Source of the DNA: Chloroflexota bacterium
Lineage (GTDB): Bacteria > Chloroflexota > Limnocylindria > QHBO01
NCBI GenBank assembly: GCA_039932375.1
Contig: JBDTQD010000004.1
Coordinates: 1-60,102 of the forward strand
Direction of reading: 5' to 3'
Length of the DNA stretch: 60,102 nt
Positions 1,269-17,150 of the stretch are shown here, one piece after another; within the stretch, counting starts at the first letter, position 1, and each line of letters begins with the position of its first letter. A model generated the notes under the pieces. The model had not been told where the DNA came from and searched no databases. It worked only from the letters and a program-made list of their open reading frames with translations. The translations under genes and the position numbers were made by a program.

Positions 1269-3110
1269 ATGACCTCATCCGGCATCACCGCCGAGATCAA
1301 ATCCAAGCTCCCCGTGCTCGACGTGGTGGGCGAGACGGTCGCCCTCAAGCGGGCCGGATCCGCCTACAAGGGGCTCTGCCCCTTCCACGCCGAGAAGACG
1401 CCGTCCTTCATCGTGAGTCCAGACCGCGAGACGTGGCGTTGTTTTGGCTGTGGCGAAGGCGGCGACATCTTCACCTTCCTGATGCGGCGCGACGGGATCG
1501 ACTTCCGCGAGGCGCTCTCCCGGCTTGCCGAGAAGGCTGGGGTCGAGCTCTCGGCGCAGACCGCCAAGGATGACCGACATCGGCGCCGATTGCGCGAAGC
1601 CCTCGAGGCGGCGATCGCCTGGTACCGCGAGGTGCTCCTCCAAGTGACCAAGGCCGACGCGGCGCGCCTCTACCTCGCTGAACGCGGCCTCACGCCGGAG
1701 ACGCTCGAACGCTTCGCAGTCGGGTACGCGCCGACCAGCTGGGACGCGCTGACTCGCCGTCTCGTCGGTCGAGGCTTCAACAACGACGAGCTGATTGCCG
1801 CCGGCCTCGCCTCTCCCTCGAACCGCGGTGGCGTGATCGACAAGTTCCGAGGCCGGATAATCATCCCGATCCGGGACGCGTCAGGGCGGCCGGTGGGGCT
1901 TGGCGGACGAATCATGCCGGGCGCCGAGGGGCCGAAGTACCTGAACTCGCCAGCCGGGCCGCTCTTTGACAAGAGCCGCACGCTGTACGGCCTCGACCTG
2001 GCCAAGGCGGCGATCAGGCGCGAAAAGCTGACCGTGATCGTGGAGGGCTACACCGATGTGATGGCCGCCCACCAGGCAGGCTTCCTCAACGTGGTGGCCA
2101 GCCTTGGCACGGCGCTGACCAGGGGACAGATCGAGCTTGCGACGCGGTACGCCGATGCCATCGCCCTTGCATACGACGTCGACCTCGCCGGCGAGGCCGC
2201 AACGCAGCGAGGGTTGATCGAGGAGCTGGGGCCAGATCAGTCGGTGAGCAAGGTGCGCGTCGTTCGGATCCCGGCGGGGAAGGACCCAGACGAGCTGATC
2301 CGCAACGATCCGGAGGCCTGGCGCACCGCGGTCGCCGACGCGAAGCCCGTCATCGACTACTTCATGGATCGAACCGCGGCCGAGGTTGACCTGGACAGCA
2401 TCACCGGCAAGCGCGAGCTCACTGGACGTGCCCTTGCCCTGCTCAAGCGCGTTGGCGATCCGGTCGAGCGGAGCCTCTATCTGCAACGACTGGCGCGGCT
2501 GGTGAACGTGGAGGAGCGGGTGCTGCTCGAGGCACTTGCCCGCGAGCCCATGCGGCGTGCCCCGCGCCTTGCGCCGGTGCCGGTCGGCCCGGCCACCGGA
2601 GAGGCGAGCGGATTGGGTCCCGGCCCGGAACGCGAGGCGCTTGGCCTCCTGCTCCGATACCCGGCGCTGGTGGCAGAGCTCCCAGCCGATGAGCCGCTGC
2701 CTTTCGGGGATGCGGCTGCCGGCGCTCTTATTGCCGCCTGGCGCGAGCGGGTCGGCCAGGGAGCTGCCACCGCTGCCGACCTGGAGGCCTTCGTCGGCAG
2801 CCTCGACCCGGCCACCGCTGGCCTGGCGCGCGACCTGCTCGGGCACCTGGCGGCCAACGGCGACACCGCTCAGCTCGATCCGGAAGCGGCCCGTAACGAG
2901 CTGCGCACCTGCTTGCTGCGACTCCGCGCCGCGCGCGTCGAAGAGGCAATCCACGATGGACAGCTCCTCCTCGTGGAGGCTCAGCGCGACGAGGATGTCG
3001 AGCTGCTGCAAACGCTCAAACAACAGATCAACCAGCTCGGCCGTGCGAAGGCCGACCTCAACAAGGCAATGGAAGGCCCGGCCCACGCGGTCGGCGCGAG
3101 GAGGAACTGA
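1269..3110 (+). CDS. dnaG: DNA primase
   Basis: CPFH..EKTPSF and CFGC zinc finger; PKYLNSP; TOPRIM motifs VEGYTDV and YDVDLAG; directly upstream of rpoD. Confidence 0.97.
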
Positions 3111-11659: not shown

Positions 11660-12016
11660 GTGAGCGCGATCGACGAGCGCACCTATCGGGCCATGGTCGA
11701 AGCGCAGAGCGACCAGCAGATCGATACCTGGGCGGCCGACCTCTTCATCGACTTCGCCAAGCGGATGGGGGTCGGCACAGCGATCGCCGCGTTCTGCAAA
11801 GTGGCGGGCCTGGACGCCAAGGCTTTTCAGCGGGTGTTCCTTGTCGGCGGGGGACCGGACCATGTGGTCGGGATCGACACCGCCGGGGCCGTGGCAGCCC
11901 CGATCTTCGAGCTTCCTCGCGCGGTCGCGGGCCTGCGCCGCATTGATCCCGATGCGCGCCGCAAGCTGGTCGGCTTCCTCGTCGGTCAGCGCGGGGTGAT
12001 GAGCTACACCCCCTGA
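11660..12016 (+). CDS. Hypothetical protein
   Basis: GGAGGAG RBS, TAGAAT upstream, typical codon usage. Confidence 0.75.
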   Translation: MSAIDERTYRAMVEAQSDQQIDTWAADLFIDFAKRMGVGTAIAAFCKVAGLDAKAFQRVFLVGGGPDHVVGIDTAGAVAAPIFELPRAVAGLRRIDPDARRKLVGFLVGQRGVMSYTP

Positions 12017-12040: not shown

Positions 12041-13009
12041 CTACGCTTCGCGGGTGGCGCGGATGATGGCGATGGCGTTCTCGAGCTTCAGCTTGGTGAC
12101 GGTCAGGTATCGGGCCAGGTTGTCCCGGTTCGTGTCCGGGATCTCGTCGATCACTTCGCGGTTGCTGATGATGTCGACCAGCTCATCGATCGCGCCGGCC
12201 AGCCGGACGCGGTTGTTGACCAGCGCATCGTCGGCATTCCGGGCTGCGACGACCTGTCCAGCGACCGTACGGGCGCGGCGCTTGGGGGCGGCCGGCTCGT
12301 GCTTCGTCGCAGGCTCCCCGCCGGTGATGGCTCGCAGCCGCGAGAGGGTCAGCTCGCCGGCCGCCACCTTCTTGGCGAGGCGCCGGCGTGTCCGCTCGTC
12401 CTTGATCTTCATCAGCTCGTAGGCGTGGCTGAGGGTGTCTTTGCGCAGGGACACCAGCTCGCGAATCTCGGCCGGGGCCTCGGCGAGCCGGATCCGATTC
12501 TCGACATAGCCCTTGTCCTTGCCGATCTTCTGCGCCAGCTGACGCACCGAGTAGCCGAGGTCCGTCATCTTGCGGAACATCGCCGCCTCCTCGAGCGGCG
12601 AGACATCCTCGCGCTGCAGGTTCTCGATGATCGACACTTCGAGGGCCGTCTCATCATCGAACTCGACGACGATGGCGGGGATCGACTCGCGCTGTGCCAT
12701 CCGCGATGCGCGCCAGCGTCGCTCACCGGCGATCAGCTCGTACTGGGCGCCGACCGGGCGTACAAGGATCGGCTGCAGTACCCCGTGCTCACGGATCGAA
12801 TCGGCCAGCTCGGTGAGCGAATCCTCTTCGTAGGAGAGGCGCGGCTGAGCTGGGTTTGGCAGGATCCTCGAGACCGGAACCTCACGGATCTGGGCATGCG
12901 TCGCGCGTGACTCGATGAGCGACACGATGCCGGGCGCCAGGTCTGTCGCCTGTGCCTCGTCGAAGAGTCGGTGGATGTTCTCGCTGAATGCGGGTCGCTT
13001 GCTAGCCAA
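12041..13009 (-). CDS. parB: ParB/Spo0J CTPase partition protein with atypical recognition residues
   Basis: NPAQPR, GVLQPILVR, ELIAGERRWRA, IENLQRED, HTH; overlaps the parA stop. Confidence 0.92.
   Translation of the reverse strand: MASKRPAFSENIHRLFDEAQATDLAPGIVSLIESRATHAQIREVPVSRILPNPAQPRLSYEEDSLTELADSIREHGVLQPILVRPVGAQYELIAGERRWRASRMAQRESIPAIVVEFDDETALEVSIIENLQREDVSPLEEAAMFRKMTDLGYSVRQLAQKIGKDKGYVENRIRLAEAPAEIRELVSLRKDTLSHAYELMKIKDERTRRRLAKKVAAGELTLSRLRAITGGEPATKHEPAAPKRRARTVAGQVVAARNADDALVNNRVRLAGAIDELVDIISNREVIDEIPDTNRDNLARYLTVTKLKLENAIAIIRATREA
12434..12455. promoter_or_regulatory. Palindrome copy 1 (candidate non-canonical parS) inside parB
   Basis: GGTGTCTTTGCGCAGGGACACC; the core matches GTCTTTGCGCAAAGAC at 14/16. 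Confidence 0.55.
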
Positions 13010-13769
13010 GTTCAATTACCTCGCGCGCCAGGTCTCGGAACGATCGGGCGGCGGCCGAGTTGGTGGCGTATTCCGTGATTGGCTTGCCGGTGAGCGGCGC
13101 CTCTCCGAGCTTCACGGTCTGCTTGATCATGGTCGAGAAGACCCGATGGTCGCCCAGCTCCCGCAGATTCTGGAGCATCTCGCGGGCAAGCACCGTGCGG
13201 CCGTCATAGAAGGTGGCCAGCAGCCCAAGGATTTCCAGGTCGTGGTTGAGCTTGATCTTGATGGTGTTGATCACCTTGATCAGCGCGGTGAGCCCCTTGA
13301 TGGCGTAGTACTGGGTCTGGACCGGAATGATGACGCGGGAGCTGGCGACCAGTGCATTGATCGTCAGCAGCCCCAGCGTCGGCGGCGAATCGATGATGAC
13401 GACGTCGTACTGCCGTTCGGCCCAGCCATCGAGCGCGTCCCGCAGCACCATCTCGCGACCGATGGCGGTGAACAGCTCGACCTCCGTCGAGGCGAGGTCG
13501 AGGGTCGACGGTGCAACCGAGAGACCTGGCATCTCCGTCTGTCGGACGATGTCGTCCAGCGGCACACGGTCTTCCGAAAGCACATCGGCCATCGAATGGT
13601 GGACATCGGACAGACTGATACCGAGTCCCACCGTGAGGTTCGCCTGCGGGTCCATGTCGATGCAGAGGACCCGGTAACCCAACTCGGCGAGCGCCCCGCC
13701 GAGGTTGATAGAGGCGGTCGTCTTCCCGACGCCGCCCTTCTGGTTCGCGATCGAAATTACCTTGGTCAC
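13002..13769 (-). CDS. parA: ParA/Soj ATPase
   Basis: [37 protein letters not shown]. Confidence 0.95.
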
Positions 13770-13861
13770 AAGCTCACCTAGCAACGGCCTGGGCGGGAAG
13801 GAATCGTCGCGACTGCGACCCGTCGATCATACGCGCCGGGGATCGTCCGCGACCATCCGAG

Positions 13862-13870
13862 TTATCCACA
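13862..13870 (+). promoter_or_regulatory. DnaA box in the parA/tRNA divergent promoter region
   Basis: Perfect TTATCCACA; degenerate TTGTCCACC at 13923-13931. Confidence 0.65.
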
Positions 13871-13888
13871 AGCTGGCGGAATGTCGAT

Positions 13889-13904
13889 GTCTTTGTGCAA
13901 AGAC
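13889..13904. promoter_or_regulatory. Palindrome copy 2 (candidate non-canonical parS/operator)
   Basis: GTCTTTGTGCAAAGAC, 15/16 match to the consensus. Confidence 0.6.
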
Positions 13905-13939
13905 GAGCCCGTATACTCGAAGTTGTCCACCATTCCATC

Positions 13940-14012
13940 GGGCCCATAGCTCAGTGGTTAGAGCATCCGGCTCATAACCGGCGGGTCGCAGGTTCGATCC
14001 CTGCTGGGCCCA
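13940..14012 (+). tRNA. tRNA with CAT anticodon, most likely tRNA-Ile2 (lysidine)
   Basis: GGGCCCA/TGGGCCC acceptor stem, CT-CAT-AA loop, A discriminator; paired 1-72 so not fMet; TATACT -10 at 13912-13917. Confidence 0.9.
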
Positions 14013-14032
14013 CTACAGCTCGGAGGATGCCC

Positions 14033-15583
14033 ATGTCGACGGCCGACAAGCTCGCGCATCTTCGCCAGCTGCGTGACGAGGCGAAGCTGGGTGGTGGCGA
14101 GCAGCGCATCGCGCAGCAGCACGAACGAAACAAGCTGACCGCACGCGAGCGGCTCGAGCTGCTGCTCGACGAAGGGTCGTTCGTGGAGCTGGATGCATTC
14201 GTGACGCATCGCGCCACCGACTTCGGCCTGGATCAAGAGCACTACCTGGGCGATGGGGTGGTGAGCGGTCACGGGCGTATCGATGAACGCCTCGTTTTCG
14301 TCTACGCGCAGGACTTCACAGTCTTCGGCGGGTCCCTCTCCGAGGCGCACGCGGAGAAGATCTGCAAGGTGATGGACCTGGCGATGGCGACGGGTGCACC
14401 GATCATCGGTCTCTCGGACTCGGGCGGCGCGCGGATCCAGGAAGGGGTTGCCTCGCTGGGCGGGTATGCCGAGATCTTCTTGCGCAACACACTGGCGTCG
14501 GGTGTGGTCCCGCAGATCTCGGTGGTGATGGGGCCGTGCGCGGGGGGCGCCGTATACTCGCCGGCGATCACCGACTTCACGGTCATGGTGGATGGCAGCA
14601 GCTACATGTTCGTCACTGGCCCCACCGTTGTGAAAACTGTGACGCACGAGGAGATCGACTTCGAGGGGCTCGGCGGTGCGCGCGTTCACAATGAGACGAG
14701 CGGCGTGGCGCACTTCCTGGCGGCGGGGGAGCCGCAGGCGATGGAGCTGACGCGACAGATCCTCGGTTACATGCCACAGAACAATGTCGATCCACCGCCG
14801 ACGCGCGAAGAGTGGAAGCCACCCGAGGTGGATGGCGCAGAGCTTGACGCCCTGGTCCCGGACTCGGCGCAGCGCTCCTACGACATGCATCGGGTCATCG
14901 CGGGCATTGTCGACGCTGGATCGTTCAACGAGGTTCACGCGCTCTTCGCGCGCAACATCATCTGCGGCTTCGCGCGGATCGAGGGACGCAGCGTCGGCAT
15001 CGTGGCGCAGCAGCCCGAGGTACTGGCCGGGGTGCTCGACATCGATGCGTCGGACAAGGCAGCGCGCTTCGTTCGCTTCTGCGACTGCTTCAATATTCCG
15101 CTCGTCACTCTGGTGGACGTCCCGGGATTTCTTCCCGGAGTCGACCAGGAGCACCGCGGCATCATCCGGCATGGGGCGAAGCTGCTGTACGCCTACTGCG
15201 AGGCGACGGTACCGAAGGTGACGGTCATCACGCGCAAGGCATATGGCGGCGCGTACGACGTCATGAGCAGCAAGCACGTCCGGGGAGACCTGAACTTCGC
15301 ATGGCCCACGGCGGAGATCGCGGTGATGGGCGTCGAGGGCGCCGTCAACATCATCTTTCGCGATCGCATCGCCGCCGCTGATGCGCCCGACGAAGAGCGA
15401 GCGAACCTGGTCGCCGAATACGAGGCGCGATTCGCGAACCCGTACATCGCTGCGGCGCGCGGCTATGTCGACGAGGTGATCCTGCCGTCGGAGACACGGG
15501 TGAGAGTCGTCGACGCGCTGGCGATGTTGGAGGGAAAGCGACAGTCGGTTCCCGCCCGGAAGCATGGCAACATCCCGCTCTGA
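14033..15583 (+). CDS. pccB: Acyl-CoA (propionyl-CoA) carboxylase carboxyltransferase subunit
   Basis: [55 protein letters not shown]. Confidence 0.93.
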
Positions 15584-17150
15584 CGATCCGTCTTTGCGCA
15601 AAGACGGGGGCCTGAATGTTTCGAGCGGTCCGCCCTTTCGGCGGCTCCTGATCGCCAACCGTGGAGAGATCGCGGTGCGCGTCATCCGCGCGTGTCGCGA
15701 GCTGGGGATCGAATCGGTCGCCGTCTACAGCGACGCAGACGTCGATGCGCTCCACGCCAGGATCGCGGACCGGGCGGAGCGGATCGGGCCAGCCCCGGCG
15801 GCTGACTCGTATCTCTCGATCGATGCGGTGCTCGATGCGGCGCGCCGCTCCGGTGCCGAGGCGATCCACCCTGGCTACGGGTTCCTGTCCGAGAACGCGG
15901 ACTTCGCCAGGGCCGTCGAGGGAGCAGGTCTGGTCTTCATCGGTCCGCCCCCGGCCACCCTGGCCGCGCTGGGCGACAAGCTCGCTGCGCGACGGAGCGT
16001 CGCGGCGGCAGGGGTGCCGATTGTTCCCGGCCTCCTGGTCCCGCTGCTCGTTGACTCGGACGGCACGCTACCGGCCGACGTGGCCGAGGTCGGCTTCCCG
16101 GCGCTCCTGAAAGCTCGGGCTGGCGGTGGCGGGCGCGGCATGCGACGGGTCGACCGGCTCGAGGAGGTCGGCCCGGCGCTGGCGAGTGCGAGCCGCGAGG
16201 CGCTGGCGGCATTCGGCGACGGCACCCTCTACATGGAGCGCCTGATCGACCCAGCGCGGCACGTCGAGGTCCAACTGCTCGGTGACCGAACGGGGGCCCT
16301 GGCGGTGCTCGGCGAGCGCGAGTGCAGCGTCCAGCGCCGCCACCAGAAACTGGTCGAAGAGTCGCCGTCGCCGGTCGTCACGCCCGAGCTGCGCAGCAGG
16401 CTGGCCGACAGCGCGCGCCTGGTCGCGGGCACGGTGACCTTCCACAACGCCGCGACCGTCGAGTTCCTGCTGGACGCCAACGGCAACCATTACTTCCTGG
16501 AGATGAACACCAGGCTGCAGGTCGAGCATGGCGTTACCGAGCTGGTGACCGGCCTCGACCTGGTCGCCTGGCAGATCCGTATCGCGGCGGGGGAACGGTT
16601 GCCGCCGGACATGCTCGCGATCGATCCGCGCGGCCACGCGATCGAGGTGCGGATCTATGCCGAGAACCCGCACCAGGCCTTCGCCCCCGTGGCCGGCGCG
16701 ATCTCCGCCTGGCGGATGCCCGCCGGTCCGGGCGTGCGGGTGGATGCCGGCATCGGCGCCGATGCGGCCCTACCAGTCGAATACGACCCGCTCCTCGCGA
16801 AGCTGCTGGTGCATGCCGACGACCGCTCTGCCGCGATCGCGCGCCTGCGTCGCGCCCTGGCTGAGACCCTCATCGGTGGCCTGCAGACCGACCTCTCGTT
16901 CCATCGCTGGCTGGTCGACGAGGCCGGCTTCGTGGCGGGGGAGTACGACACCGGCCTGATCGACGATCGCTGGGGCAAGGGGCCGGCGCTGACCGCCGAC
17001 GAGCGATCGCTGGCGGCGTGGGTCGCGCTCCAGGCGCGGACGCAAAACGGAGCTGAGCGCCCTCCCGAGGAGGCTCGGTCGCCCGCAGGCGACACTGCCT
17101 GGGCGGCCCTCGCGCGCCGAGAGGCGGTCGACAGGCGGCGAAGCCGATGA
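15564..17150 (+). CDS. Biotin carboxylase subunit (start uncertain; alternative CTG at 15612)
   Basis: [52 protein letters not shown]. Confidence 0.92.
15588..15607. promoter_or_regulatory. Palindrome copy 3 (candidate non-canonical parS)
   Basis: Perfect 20-bp palindrome CCGTCTTTGCGCAAAGACGG just after the pccB stop. Confidence 0.6.

What the first reader, a model, noticed from the sequence alone, without database searches (positions are those of the whole stretch)
12041..15607. ParABS variant: re-coded ParB recognition residues plus a new 16-bp palindrome GTCTTTGCGCAAAGAC in three nearby copies
Seen: the palindrome occurs at 12437-12452 (GTCTTTGCGCAGGGAC, in parB), 13889-13904 (GTCTTTGTGCAAAGAC, parA promoter region) and 15590-15605 (perfect, extending to 20 bp). 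All three lie within 3.2 kb around parAB. By eye I found no other full copy in the 60 kb and no canonical parS (TGTTTCACGTGAAACA). The ParB keeps the CTPase box GERRWRA, but its HTH reads GKDKGYVENRIRLAEAP...SLRKDTLSHAY. Established: parS versus NBS specificity is set by four residues (Caulobacter ParB R173/T179/A184/G201; Noc Q/K/K/R). A gap-free manual alignment gives K/R/E/S here, matching neither set. Inference: this is a third specificity class of ParB clamp with its own 16-bp centromere or operator.
Basis: partly seen in the sequence, partly recalled or inferred. Interest (0 to 1): 0.85.

Follow-up and report, generated by a model that had tools for sequence, protein, structure and literature searches.

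The report
Second ParABS system with own centromere-like site
This soil Chloroflexota genome and its whole class carry, besides the usual chromosome-partition genes, a second ParA/ParB pair surrounded by its own conserved 16-base palindrome, which looks like a separate, non-cross-reacting centromere-like system on the same chromosome.

Summary
The three palindromes are at the stated coordinates; chance predicts 0.17. The whole 1.84 Mb genome holds one more copy.

The window pair is therefore a second system, "ParAB2", not a re-coded only system.

- **Distribution:** ParB2 is conserved across the class Limnocylindria and lies on the same chromosome as dnaA, about 760-800 kb away.
- **Sites:** in two families the palindrome occurs 1-5 times per genome, clustered around parAB2 wherever positions were listed.
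- **Selection:** the in-gene copy is held by synonymous-codon choice (AAA Lys 56/70 against 4% elsewhere).
- **Protein:** ParB2 keeps the CTP boxes. It changes seven DNA-contact positions, lacks the LGRGL ParA motif, and has a different, helical C-terminal domain predicted to dimerise.

ParB2 binding to the palindrome is inferred, not shown. Three other families keep ParB2 but lack the motif near it.

Verdict: a new variant of ParABS, moderately to highly interesting.

The parts
12041..13015 (-). parB2: 324-aa ParB paralogue (P0001). ParB_N domain with Box I-III, HTH_ParB, and a non-canonical helical C-terminal domain.
   Evidence: Pfam ParB_N 1.7e-33 and HTH_ParB 4.7e-16. The AF2 model has pLDDT 78 and a helical hairpin at 251-323. 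Foldseek top hits are ParB, Noc and KorB. Identity to the genome's canonical ParB is 40% over 186 aa only.
13002..13784 (-). parA2: 260-aa deviant-Walker-A ParA (P0002), in an operon with parB2 and overlapping its start.
   Evidence: Pfam AAA_31 1.1e-59 and CbiA 3.3e-27. The KGGVGKT motif is present. Identity to ParA1 is 43%. parA2 lies beside parB2 in 30 of 30 first-round loci, L005-L034.
12437..12452 (.). Site 1: GTCTTTGCGCAGGGAC, inside parB2 codons V-S-L-R-K-D.
   Evidence: A site occupies this position in 75 of 80 related loci. Synonymous codons are constrained: AAA Lys 56/70 against 4% elsewhere, and TTG Leu 18/27 against 4.7%.
13889..13904 (.). Site 2: GTCTTTGTGCAAAGAC, between parA2 and the divergent tRNA-Met.
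   Evidence: A site occupies this position in 74 of 80 related loci, with GTCTTTGCACAAAGAC in 58 of the 74.
15588..15607 (.). Site 3: perfect GTCTTTGCGCAAAGAC (20-bp palindrome with flanks), between the carboxyltransferase stop codon and the conserved start of the biotin carboxylase domain.
   Evidence: A site occupies this position in 64 of 80 related loci. The flanks vary (64 distinct sequences) while the core positions are 92-100% conserved.
13940..14013 (+). tRNA-Met, a syntenic neighbour divergent from parA2. It marks the conserved locus and is not claimed as a functional part.
   Evidence: ARAGORN and Rfam tRNA 70.9 bits. tRNA-Met lies beside parA2 in 6 of 7 loci of families f2 and f5; in the seventh, L116, it lies about 1.3 kb away.
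11660..12016 (+). orf118 (P0273): a conserved small protein of unknown fold, convergent with parB2. A possible accessory; membership is uncertain.
   Evidence: tblastn hits in 112 of 125 loci (f1, f3, f4) and none in 13 loci from 8 genomes of f2 and f5. No Pfam hit. AF2 pLDDT 94.5. No Foldseek PDB match, best E 1.8.

Best explanation
The window encodes a second, orthogonal ParABS-type system, here called ParABS2. It has been inherited vertically through the class Limnocylindria (Chloroflexota) and coexists on one chromosome with a canonical ParAB-parS next to dnaA. The proposed mechanism has four steps. First, ParB2 dimers, held together by a novel helical C-terminal domain, recognise the 16-bp palindrome GTCnnTGC(G/A)CAnnGAC through a re-coded helix-turn-helix. 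Second, they load there as CTP-dependent clamps and spread over the few kilobases around the parA2-parB2 operon. Third, the resulting complex is acted on by its own ATPase, ParA2, through a non-LGRGL N-terminal peptide. This keeps the system insulated from ParA1/ParB1/parS. Fourth, the site upstream of parA2 probably also gives autoregulation. Shown here: the existence, conservation, clustering and DNA-level selection of the sites; the two-system genome; the same-chromosome, non-origin position; and the domain and motif content of the proteins. Inferred: that ParB2 is the binder, that CTP is used, that ParA2 is the partner, and that the output is positioning or segregation of this chromosome region.
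For: **Sites are real, exclusive and clustered.**
- The window has 3 matches against 0.17 expected.
- The 1.84 Mb genome has 4 matches at up to 3 mismatches, 3 of them within 3.2 kb.
- Five of 5 near-complete genomes of the genus have exactly 3 sites at up to 2 mismatches. All are at the parAB2 locus, and the reversed control gives 0.
- In 151 genomes of the class the motif (up to 1 mismatch) is found in f1 48/50, f3 44/44, f5 1/1, f2 5/49 and f4 0/6. In the rows listed the sites lie a few kb apart on one contig.
- In 80 loci the sites sit at three fixed positions, with counts of 75, 74 and 64.

**Selection acts on the DNA.**
- Core positions are 92-100% conserved within variable flanks.
- Rare synonymous codons are kept at the in-gene site.
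- Changes in the two arms are not compensatory. For example, GTCCGTGCGCAAAGAC is the in-gene core in 35 of 75 sites. That fits half-site recognition by a protein, not a hairpin.

**A canonical system exists elsewhere in the genome.**
- It lies on C8 as parS-parA1-parB1-gyrB-gyrA.
- In 5 of 5 genomes a canonical parS (0-2 mismatches) lies beside parAB1. It is the only hit in four of them; G005 has one further 2-mismatch hit elsewhere.

**ParB2 looks like a clamp but is re-coded.**
- Box I (N54, P58, R59), Box II (G97-A103) and Box III (E131-D137) are invariant in 25 orthologues.
- The four specificity positions read K/R/E/S, against R/S/D/G in ParB1.
- Jalal 2020 report an invariable R173 in parS-specific variants, and Q (R allowed) in NBS-specific ones (passages).
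- Of the six contact residues that paper calls conserved between ParB and Noc (passage), ParB2 keeps the G170, K171 and N178 equivalents. It replaces Q162 with V/I, S172 with D, and R204 with Y.

**Motif presence follows the ParB2 residue state.**
- f1 and f3, which have the motif, carry [ED]179, [KR]192 and H197.
- f2 and f5 carry [STNG]179, Y/H192 and A197. f4 carries H179 and S192. None of these has the motif at the locus.

**Partner and dimerisation.**
- parA2 is adjacent in 30 of 30 loci.
- The C-terminal domain homodimer (residues 245-324) scored 0.50 against a best control of 0.00. That mark was reached by 20 of 30 solved homodimers and 1 of 23 solved single chains. The runs agree in at least 93% of contacts, and the partner's pLDDT is at least 73.

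**Vertical inheritance.**
- ParB2 is one clade (SH-aLRT 98) and ParB1 another (97), with matching internal family order.
Against: - No binding, CTPase or localisation data exist. The link between ParB2 and the palindrome is correlative and rests on only two or three independent evolutionary transitions.
- Families f2 (motif in 5/49, about what chance gives by my estimate), f4 (0/6) and f5 keep ParB2 but have no motif within 10 kb of it. I could not find a replacement palindrome there.
- In f4, 4 of 5 genomes (91-93% complete) keep ParB2 but yielded no ParA2 orthologue. ParB2 therefore has some role that does not need ParA2.
- The locus is not near the origin. It lies 34-38% of the circle from dnaA in three assemblies, an unusual place for a segregation centromere.
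- ParB2 lacks the LG(R/K)GL motif, so stimulation of ParA2 is assumed, not evident.
- Site 2 lies in a divergent promoter region, so an operator role alone could explain that copy.
- orf118 co-occurs with the motif in f1 and f3, and is an untested alternative binder.
Confidence: 0.6

Rival explanations
1. Operator only. ParB2 is chiefly a KorB-like or autoregulatory transcription factor. The palindromes are operators controlling parA2-parB2 and the neighbouring tRNA-Met / propionyl-CoA carboxylase / methylmalonyl-CoA mutase genes. There is no segregation or positioning role.
For: - Site 2 lies between the divergent parA2 and tRNA-Met/pccB genes.
- Further sites fall at gene boundaries of the adjacent carboxylase operon, in f3 up to 4-5 sites about 1.6 kb apart.
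- ParB2 gives weak KorB and RepB Pfam matches.
- In f4, 4 of 5 genomes keep ParB2 without a detectable ParA2.
- Known ParB-fold CTP clamps such as KorB and BisD regulate transcription (abstracts listed).
Against: - The best-conserved copy is inside the parB2 coding sequence, far from any promoter, and is maintained by synonymous-codon selection.
- A dedicated ParA2 is adjacent in f1, f2, f3 and f5.
- The KorB Pfam score is below the curated cut-off (21.5 against 22.3).
- No sigma-70-like promoter was detected around site 2, although the scan is crude.
Confidence: 0.17
2. Another protein binds the palindrome. The candidate is the conserved orf118 downstream of parB2, or an unlinked regulator. 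ParB2 recognises some other, unidentified sequence.
For: - orf118 is present in f1 and f3, which have the motif, and was not found in the f2 and f5 loci, which lack it.
- ParB2 persists in three families without the motif.
- No direct evidence ties ParB2 to the site.
Against: - f4 has orf118 but the motif was found in 0 of 6 genomes. The ParB2 residue state ([ED]179 with [KR]192) matches the motif distribution in all five families.
- orf118 has no Pfam family, and no DNA-binding fold match.
- A 16-bp palindrome in 2-5 clustered copies, one of them inside parB itself, is the known pattern for ParB-family sites. That pattern is recalled general knowledge. The parS next to parA1 in this genome is a local example.
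Confidence: 0.1
3. Relic of an anciently integrated secondary replicon or plasmid partition cassette. It is retained but no longer has a role in DNA positioning.
For: - ParB2 is not a recent duplicate of ParB1. It falls in a separate deep lineage with three unnamed representatives, split from all canonical ParBs with SH-aLRT 100.
- A related K-type parA-parB pair exists in another Chloroflexota family, on a 4-kb contig.
- Replicon-specific ParABS systems with their own parS are known, for example on V. cholerae chromosome II (listing).
Against: - The proteins, the sites and the synteny with tRNA-Met are conserved class-wide, with co-divergence of ParB1 and ParB2.
- The sites are under purifying selection.
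- Among the ten neighbouring ORFs scanned, the seven with Pfam matches are housekeeping or metabolic, and no replication-initiator or mobility gene was seen.
- The best plasmid homologue has only 40.5% identity.
Confidence: 0.08
4. The palindrome acts as an RNA or DNA hairpin (terminator, attenuator or REP-like element), not as a protein-binding site.
For: Site 3 directly follows a stop codon and can form an 8-bp stem.
Against: - RNA folding energies are unexceptional, with z-scores of 0.30, 0.03, -0.33 and -1.22.
- There is no T-tract terminator and no Rfam family other than the tRNA.
- Arm changes are non-compensatory.
- The copies lie in different transcriptional contexts and orientations.
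Confidence: 0.02

Closest known systems
Canonical chromosomal ParABS (Spo0J/ParB-parS, e.g. B. subtilis, C. crescentus, T. thermophilus)
   Same: - It is a parA-parB operon.
- ParB has the N-terminal CTPase fold with Box I-III plus an HTH.
- The cognate-looking site is a 16-bp palindrome in a few clustered copies, one inside parB and one upstream of parA.
   Different: - The site differs from parS at 5 of 8 half-site positions.
- The specificity positions read K/R/E/S instead of R/x/x/G. The equivalents of Q162, S172 and R204 are replaced.
- There is no LG(R/K)GL motif.
- The C-terminal domain is a helical hairpin, not the canonical one.
- The locus lies about 760-800 kb from dnaA and coexists with a canonical system.
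Noc-NBS (Firmicutes nucleoid occlusion)
   Same: It is a ParB paralogue with changed DNA specificity, living beside a canonical ParB. The best NCBIfam match of ParB2 is the Noc model (187 bits). Noc structures are among the top fold matches.
   Different: - The score is far below the Noc cut-off of 315.
- The residues are K/R/E/S, not Q/K/K/R.
- The sites are clustered at one locus, not scattered.
- ParB2 has its own ParA in most families.
- ParB2 is not a duplicate of the resident ParB1.
- The NBS sequence and Noc's membrane helix are known to me from the literature. Only the passages cited were read.
Replicon-specific ParABS of multipartite genomes (e.g. V. cholerae ParAB2-parS2, Burkholderia, Deinococcus)
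   Same: A second ParA/ParB pair has its own distinct centromere sequence. This allows two systems to work in one cell without cross-talk (search listing; the rest is recalled).
   Different: Those systems sit on separate replicons next to that replicon's origin. Here both systems are on one contig or chromosome in 3 of 3 assemblies where this could be judged. The second one is far from dnaA, with no initiator gene seen among the neighbouring genes scanned.
KorB-OB (RK2) and other regulatory ParB-CTP clamps (BisD, VirB)
   Same: It has the ParB-CTPase fold plus an HTH, palindromic sites, and a possible operator copy in a promoter region. KorB structures match the fold.
   Different: The KorB Pfam score is below the cut-off. 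No KorA- or TrbA-like partner was identified. Most copies are not in promoters.

Membership tests
ParB-CTPase DNA clamp (broad family) | N-terminal ParB fold with the CTP-binding Box I (QPR), Box II (GERRxRA) and Box III (ENxQRE) | tested here: met
   Pfam ParB_N 115 bits against a cut-off of 26.3. N54, P58, R59, G97-A103 and E131-D137 are invariant in 25 orthologues.
ParB-CTPase DNA clamp (broad family) | Central HTH DNA-binding domain | tested here: met
   HTH_ParB 59.2 bits against a cut-off of 22.6. HMMER alignments to the Spo0J and Noc DNA-binding domains. Foldseek matches.
ParB-CTPase DNA clamp (broad family) | C-terminal dimerisation domain closing the clamp | tested here: inconclusive
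   There is no sequence similarity to the ParB1 C-terminal domain, and no Pfam family covers residues 228-324 at E<=0.001. AF2 gives a helical hairpin. The homodimer model scored 0.50 against a best control of 0.00. That mark was reached by 20 of 30 solved homodimers and 1 of 23 single chains; contact agreement is at least 93% and pLDDT at least 73. This supports dimerisation but does not show it.
ParB-CTPase DNA clamp (broad family) | CTP binding and hydrolysis, with site-dependent clamp closure | not testable with these tools
   Only motif conservation is available.
Canonical chromosomal ParB (parS-binding Spo0J type) | Recognition residues R173 and G201 (C. crescentus numbering), plus the conserved contacts Q162, S172 and R204 | tested here: not met
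   ParB2 has K, S, V, D and Y at these positions. The residue rules come from Jalal 2020 passages. ParB1 of the same genome has R173, S172, G201 and R204.
Canonical chromosomal ParB (parS-binding Spo0J type) | N-terminal LG(R/K)GL ParA-interaction motif | tested here: not met
   ParB2 reads L-A-P-G-I-V-S-L at the aligned place, preceded by a family-specific helix. ParB1 has (G/A)LGRGL in 13 of 13 relatives and in G000. The motif definition comes from a passage of PMC12704722.
Canonical chromosomal ParB (parS-binding Spo0J type) | Cognate TGTTNCACGTGAAACA sites near the gene and near oriC | tested here: not met
   No such site occurs in the window. The genome's only one lies beside parAB1. parAB2 is 757-802 kb from dnaA.
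Noc | Q173/K179/K184/R201 residues and NBS sites spread over the chromosome | tested here: not met
   The residues are K/R/E/S. The sites are confined to one locus. The NCBIfam Noc score is 187, below the cut-off of 315.
Noc | Orphan gene (no dedicated ParA) with an N-terminal membrane-targeting helix | tested here: inconclusive
   ParA2 is adjacent in f1, f2, f3 and f5, but was not found in 4 of 5 f4 genomes. A helix at residues 10-23 is predicted at low confidence, pLDDT 35-43. Its function was not tested.
KorB-type regulator | KorB domain match, with operator sites at many promoters | tested here: not met
   Pfam KorB scored 21.5 against a cut-off of 22.3. Only one of the three site classes is in a promoter region.
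Secondary-replicon ParABS | Encoded on, and specific to, a separate replicon next to its origin | tested here: not met
   ParB2, ParB1 and dnaA are on one contig in G168 (a complete 2,086,592-bp chromosome), G169:C2 and G170:C7. No initiator or mobility genes were seen among the neighbouring genes scanned.

The most novel reading that the evidence does not exclude
Limnocylindria chromosomes carry two insulated centromere systems. One is a canonical ParABS1 at the origin. The other is an ancient, orthogonal ParABS2 whose ParB2-CTP clamps load at GTCTTTGCRCAAAGAC about two-thirds of the way down one replication arm. ParABS2 actively positions, or loads condensin on, that region. This would be a natural two-centromere bacterial chromosome. 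The ParB2-site pair has itself drifted in specificity between families (f1/f3 against f2/f4/f5). In streamlined lineages ParB2 has become a ParA-independent factor.
Probability: 0.3. Interest if true: 0.8.

Novelty: new variant of a known kind. Interest (0 to 1): 0.62.

Why it matters
- **A new recognition class.** If ParB2 binds this palindrome, it is a naturally evolved third recognition class in the ParB/Noc HTH scaffold. It changes seven contact positions, where Noc changes four. That extends the best-studied model of how DNA-binding specificity diversifies.
- **An unexplained chromosome architecture.** A complete second ParA/ParB/site set on the same chromosome, far from the origin, has been kept through a whole class of abundant, uncultured soil and freshwater bacteria. 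Current models of ParABS-driven origin segregation do not explain what it does.
- **A possible tool.** An orthogonal ParB/site pair would add to the ParB/parS systems used to label DNA loci in live cells. Titles of such tool papers appear in the listing.
- **Natural experiments.** Family-level turnover offers useful comparisons: the motif is lost in f2, f4 and f5, and ParA2 was not found in 4 of 5 f4 genomes.

Tried and rejected
**1. Replacement site in families f2, f4 and f5.** I searched 20-kb loci of 8 genomes for shared palindromic half-sites, AT-richer palindromes, the motif at up to 4 mismatches and its half-sites, conserved blocks upstream of parA2, repeated k-mers and GTC-N10-GAC palindromes. 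Nothing was shared. The recurrent CATCTACAAGAAGATG is simply the IYKKM codons of parB2.

**2. Origin and terminus from GC skew.** Twenty 20-kb samples of the complete chromosome G168 gave a weak, noisy skew. Gene-strand bias in the same samples was clearer. It places the convergence point near 1.35-1.5 Mb. parAB2, at 1.077 Mb, is therefore in neither the origin nor the terminus region. Resolution is about 100 kb.

**3. The extra site on C17.** GTATTTGCGCAAAGAC lies between a CcdA-like gene and trxB. That locus is about 900 kb or more from parAB2 in four relatives. It carries no site in five genus genomes. I treat it as strain-specific or chance; by my estimate about 0.015-0.03 such 1-mismatch hits are expected per genome.

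**4. Recent plasmid origin.** The best match among 72,556 plasmid records has 40.5% identity.

**5. RNA element.** Rfam, the terminator scan and folding energies gave nothing.

**6. Expression.** No RNA holder was listed for the locus. This says nothing about expression. No reads were laid.

**7. Names for homologues.** The 120 proteins listed are all close relatives (89-94% identity) with generic ParB names.

**8. Literature.**
- 'Limnocylindria' with 'ParB' found 1 unrelated paper.
- 'ParB, parS, Chloroflexi' found 18 papers; none of the 12 listed is on this topic.
- 'second ParABS / ParB paralog / ParB2 / non-canonical parS' returned only multipartite-genome, plasmid and tool papers among the 25 listed.
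- The 2025 survey of the ParB-CTPase fold (PMC12704722) has 0 occurrences of 'Chloroflex' or 'paralog' in its main text.

**9. orf118 fold.** Foldseek found no match in the PDB.

Full report
**Observation.** The three palindromes are at the stated coordinates.
- 12437-12452 reads GTCTTTGCGCAGGGAC and lies inside parB.
- 13889-13904 reads GTCTTTGTGCAAAGAC. It is 105 bp upstream of parA and 36 bp from a divergent tRNA-Met.
- 15590-15605 is perfect, and is a 20-bp palindrome with its flanks.

Allowing up to 3 mismatches, the 60-kb window has only these three copies. Shuffles give 0.17 on average, and 0 of 100 reach three. No canonical parS is in the window.

The window is contig C4 of a 1.84 Mb, 133-contig assembly with 69% GC and 90% completeness. 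Genome-wide, the palindrome (up to 3 mismatches) occurs four times: the three above, and one isolated 1-mismatch copy on C17.

The genome has a second ParB_N gene, on C8. There the order is a perfect TGTTTCACGTGAAACA, then 85 bp further parA1 (255 aa), parB1 (285 aa), gyrB and gyrA. ParB1 has the LGRGL N-terminus, R/S/D/G at the four specificity positions, and a typical C-terminus. The window pair is therefore a paralogous second system. ParB2 and ParB1 share 40% identity over 186 residues, and their C-terminal parts do not align. ParA2 and ParA1 share 43% identity.

**Taxon and distribution.** Record titles of 80 related loci name Chloroflexota, mostly 'Candidatus Limnocylindria'. All are metagenome-assembled genomes from soil-type projects.
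- Among 41 relatives including the window's genome, a ParB2-type match (E <= 1e-60) was found in 37. The four without are 62-83% complete.
- In a phylum-wide draw of 251 genomes, matches at E <= 1e-45 occur in all 29 Limnocylindria (the window's genome, f1 14/14, f3 13/13, f4 1/1) and in 1 of the 222 others.
- The 120 proteins listed for ParB2's homologues carry only generic ParB names.

**Same chromosome, not at the origin.** The positions in three assemblies are as follows.

| Assembly | dnaA | ParB1 | ParB2 |
|---|---|---|---|
| G168 (complete chromosome, 2,086,592 bp) | 275 kb | 253 kb | 1,077 kb |
| G169:C2 | 1,741 kb | 1,762 kb | 969 kb |
| G170:C7 | 777 kb | 756 kb | 1,534 kb |

ParB2 is thus 757-802 kb from dnaA, or 34-38% of the circle. 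GC skew in G168 is too weak to use. Gene-strand bias in twenty 20-kb samples switches near 1.35-1.5 Mb. This puts parAB2 roughly two-thirds of the way down one arm. A canonical parS (0-2 mismatches) lies beside parAB1 in 5 of 5 genomes. It is the only hit in four of them; G005 has one further 2-mismatch hit elsewhere.

**The palindrome is a conserved, locus-bound element.**
- Five of 5 near-complete genomes of the genus have exactly three copies (up to 2 mismatches). All are at the syntenic parAB2 positions, and the reversed-pattern control gives none.
- Across 151 genomes of the class, GTCTTTGNNCAAAGAC (up to 1 mismatch) is present in f1 48/50, f3 44/44, f5 1/1, f2 5/49 and f4 0/6.
- Where positions were listed, the copies lie a few kilobases apart on one contig. 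There are up to 4-5 copies in f3. The reversed control hit 4 genomes once each.
- By my estimate, the f2 rate of about 0.1 per genome is what chance gives for this pattern.
- In 80 f1 loci, 55 have three sites, 16 have two, 6 have one and 3 have four. The sites fall in three position classes: in parB2 (75), upstream of parA2 (74) and after the carboxyltransferase gene (64). Two lie elsewhere.
- The consensus is GTC-nn-TGC-(G/A)CA-nn-GAC. The outer and inner triplets are 92-100% conserved, positions 4-5 and 12-13 vary, and the flanks are unconserved.
- Changes in the two arms are not compensatory, which argues against a hairpin. Folding energies, the terminator scan and Rfam also give nothing.

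The in-gene copy is held by codon choice. At the site Lys is AAA in 56 of 70 genes, against 4% of 1,073 other Lys codons in the same genes. Leu is TTG in 18 of 27, against 4.7%. Arg is CGC in 67 of 73, against 50%. These genes are related, so the counts are not independent. At 73-92% protein identity, however, synonymous sites would otherwise have drifted.

**The protein.**
- Pfam finds ParB_N and HTH_ParB. The best NCBIfam match is the Noc model, at 187 bits, far below its cut-off of 315.
- In 25 orthologues from five families, Box I, Box II (GERRWRA) and Box III (ENLQRED) are invariant.
- HMMER alignments to Spo0J (6sdk) and Noc (6y93) place K168, R174, E179 and S196 at the positions called 173, 179, 184 and 201 in C. 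crescentus ParB.
- Passages of Jalal et al. 2020 (PMC7383237) state that parS-specific variants have an invariable R173. NBS-specific ones favour Q173 with K/R at 179/184 and R201. [quoted passage not shown]
- ParB2 keeps the G170, K171 and N178 equivalents. It has V/I, D and Y at the Q162, S172 and R204 equivalents. D167 and Y199 are invariant in the family.
- The N-terminus lacks LG(R/K)GL and has a family-specific segment, predicted as a helix at residues 10-23 with low confidence.
- After a disordered linker, the C-terminal 75 residues form a confident helical hairpin. No Pfam family covers this part.
- A homodimer model of residues 245-324 scored 0.50 against a best control of 0.00. That mark was reached by 20 of 30 solved homodimers and 1 of 23 single chains. 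The runs agree in at least 93% of contacts, and pLDDT is at least 73. This supports dimerisation but does not show it.
- In the 1.84-billion-protein representative library, matches that extend into the C-terminal part (to about residue 320) occur in only about six of the 150 listed clusters.

**Link between ParB2 and the site.** The evidence is correlative. f1 and f3 have the motif. Their ParB2s share only about 50-56% identity overall, yet have the same recognition residues ([ED]179, [KR]192, S196, H197, Y199).

The lineages without the motif at the locus differ at exactly these positions. f2 has [STNG]179, Y192 and A197. f5 has T179, H192 and A197. f4 has H179 and S192. On the tree this amounts to two or three transitions only.

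A small conserved ORF downstream (orf118) tracks the motif less well. It is present in f1, f3 and f4, and was not found in f2 or f5.

**Origin.** ParB2 forms one clade (SH-aLRT 98). Three unnamed clusters are its sisters, and the group is split from all canonical ParBs, including the ParB1 clade (97), with support of 100. Within both paralogue clades the families branch alike, which indicates vertical co-inheritance (quick search, midpoint root, background of 42 hand-picked representatives).

One other Chloroflexota genome (G192) has a related parA-parB pair on a 4-kb contig. Its ParB has a K-type HTH and a Tyr at the R204-equivalent position. The best plasmid homologue has 40.5% identity. The neighbouring genes with Pfam matches are metabolic: carboxyltransferase, biotin carboxylase, BCCP and methylmalonyl-CoA mutase.

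**Complications.**
- f2 keeps parA2-parB2 and the tRNA-Met synteny but has no recognisable site.
- In f4, whose genomes are about 1.0-1.4 Mb, ParB2 is present in 5 of 5 genomes, but a ParA2 orthologue in only 1 of 5.
- Either the site has turned over with the recognition residues, or ParB2 has a role beyond ParA2 and this palindrome.

**Conclusion.** The most likely reading (about 0.6) is an orthogonal second ParABS-type system, with the palindrome as the ParB2 loading site. Whether it segregates or positions a chromosome region, only autoregulates, or does something Noc-like is open. I found nothing in print on it in the searches, or in the passages.

Noticed in passing
window 11660-12016 (+): orf118 (P0273) is a 118-aa protein convergent with parB2. 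It is conserved in families f1, f3 and f4 (37-89% identity) and was not found in the f2 and f5 loci. It has no Pfam family. Its AF2 model is very confident (pLDDT 94.5, mostly helical) and has no Foldseek match in the PDB.
   Followed up: partly
G000 contig C17:11922-11937 (L004:5923-5938): A fourth, isolated copy of the palindrome (GTATTTGCGCAAAGAC) lies in the 44-bp gap between a CcdA-like membrane protein gene and trxB. In relatives that locus is about 900 kb or more from parAB2, and it carries no site in five other genomes of the genus.
   Followed up: partly
G000 contig C8:24995-25010 (L003:6996-7011) and L003:7096-14058: This is the canonical partition locus of the genome. It has a perfect parS 85 bp upstream of parA1, then parB1, gyrB and gyrA. 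mreD-like, PBP2-like and RodA-like ORFs are read upstream from their translations only.
   Followed up: partly
f4 genomes G032, G064, G076, G085, G124 (L121): In the small-genome family f4 (about 1.0-1.4 Mb), ParB2 and orf118 are kept. A ParA2 orthologue was found in only 1 of 5 genomes, and the palindrome in 0 of 6. In L121, methylmalonyl-CoA mutase directly precedes parB2.
   Followed up: partly
L164 (G192:C452), positions 1241-1258 and 3010-3025: The related K-type parA-parB pair of another Chloroflexota family has its own palindromes. An 18-bp CGTATTTCTGGAAATACG lies inside its parB, and TTTCACTATAGTGAA lies about 260 bp upstream of its parA. These may be the sites of a further specificity variant.
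   Followed up: no
G168 chromosome samples (L123-L142): GC skew is weak. Where it is visible, it is positive on the strand opposite to most genes (1.56-1.98 Mb). Skew here therefore seems to follow gene orientation inversely rather than mark the leading strand in the usual way.
   Followed up: no
window 15564-15620: The longest ORF of the biotin carboxylase gene starts at an ATG that overlaps the end of the carboxyltransferase gene. Read this way, site 3 would be translated as S-L-R-K-D, the same residues as the in-parB2 site. The conserved domain starts only at residue 25, and an in-frame TTG lies inside the palindrome, so the true start is unclear.
   Followed up: no
window 13940-14013 (-): An Rfam 'Plastid-ycf2' match lies antisense to the tRNA-Met, at 55.1 bits against a gathering score of 65.7. 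It is most likely an artefact of tRNA-like sequence.
   Followed up: no
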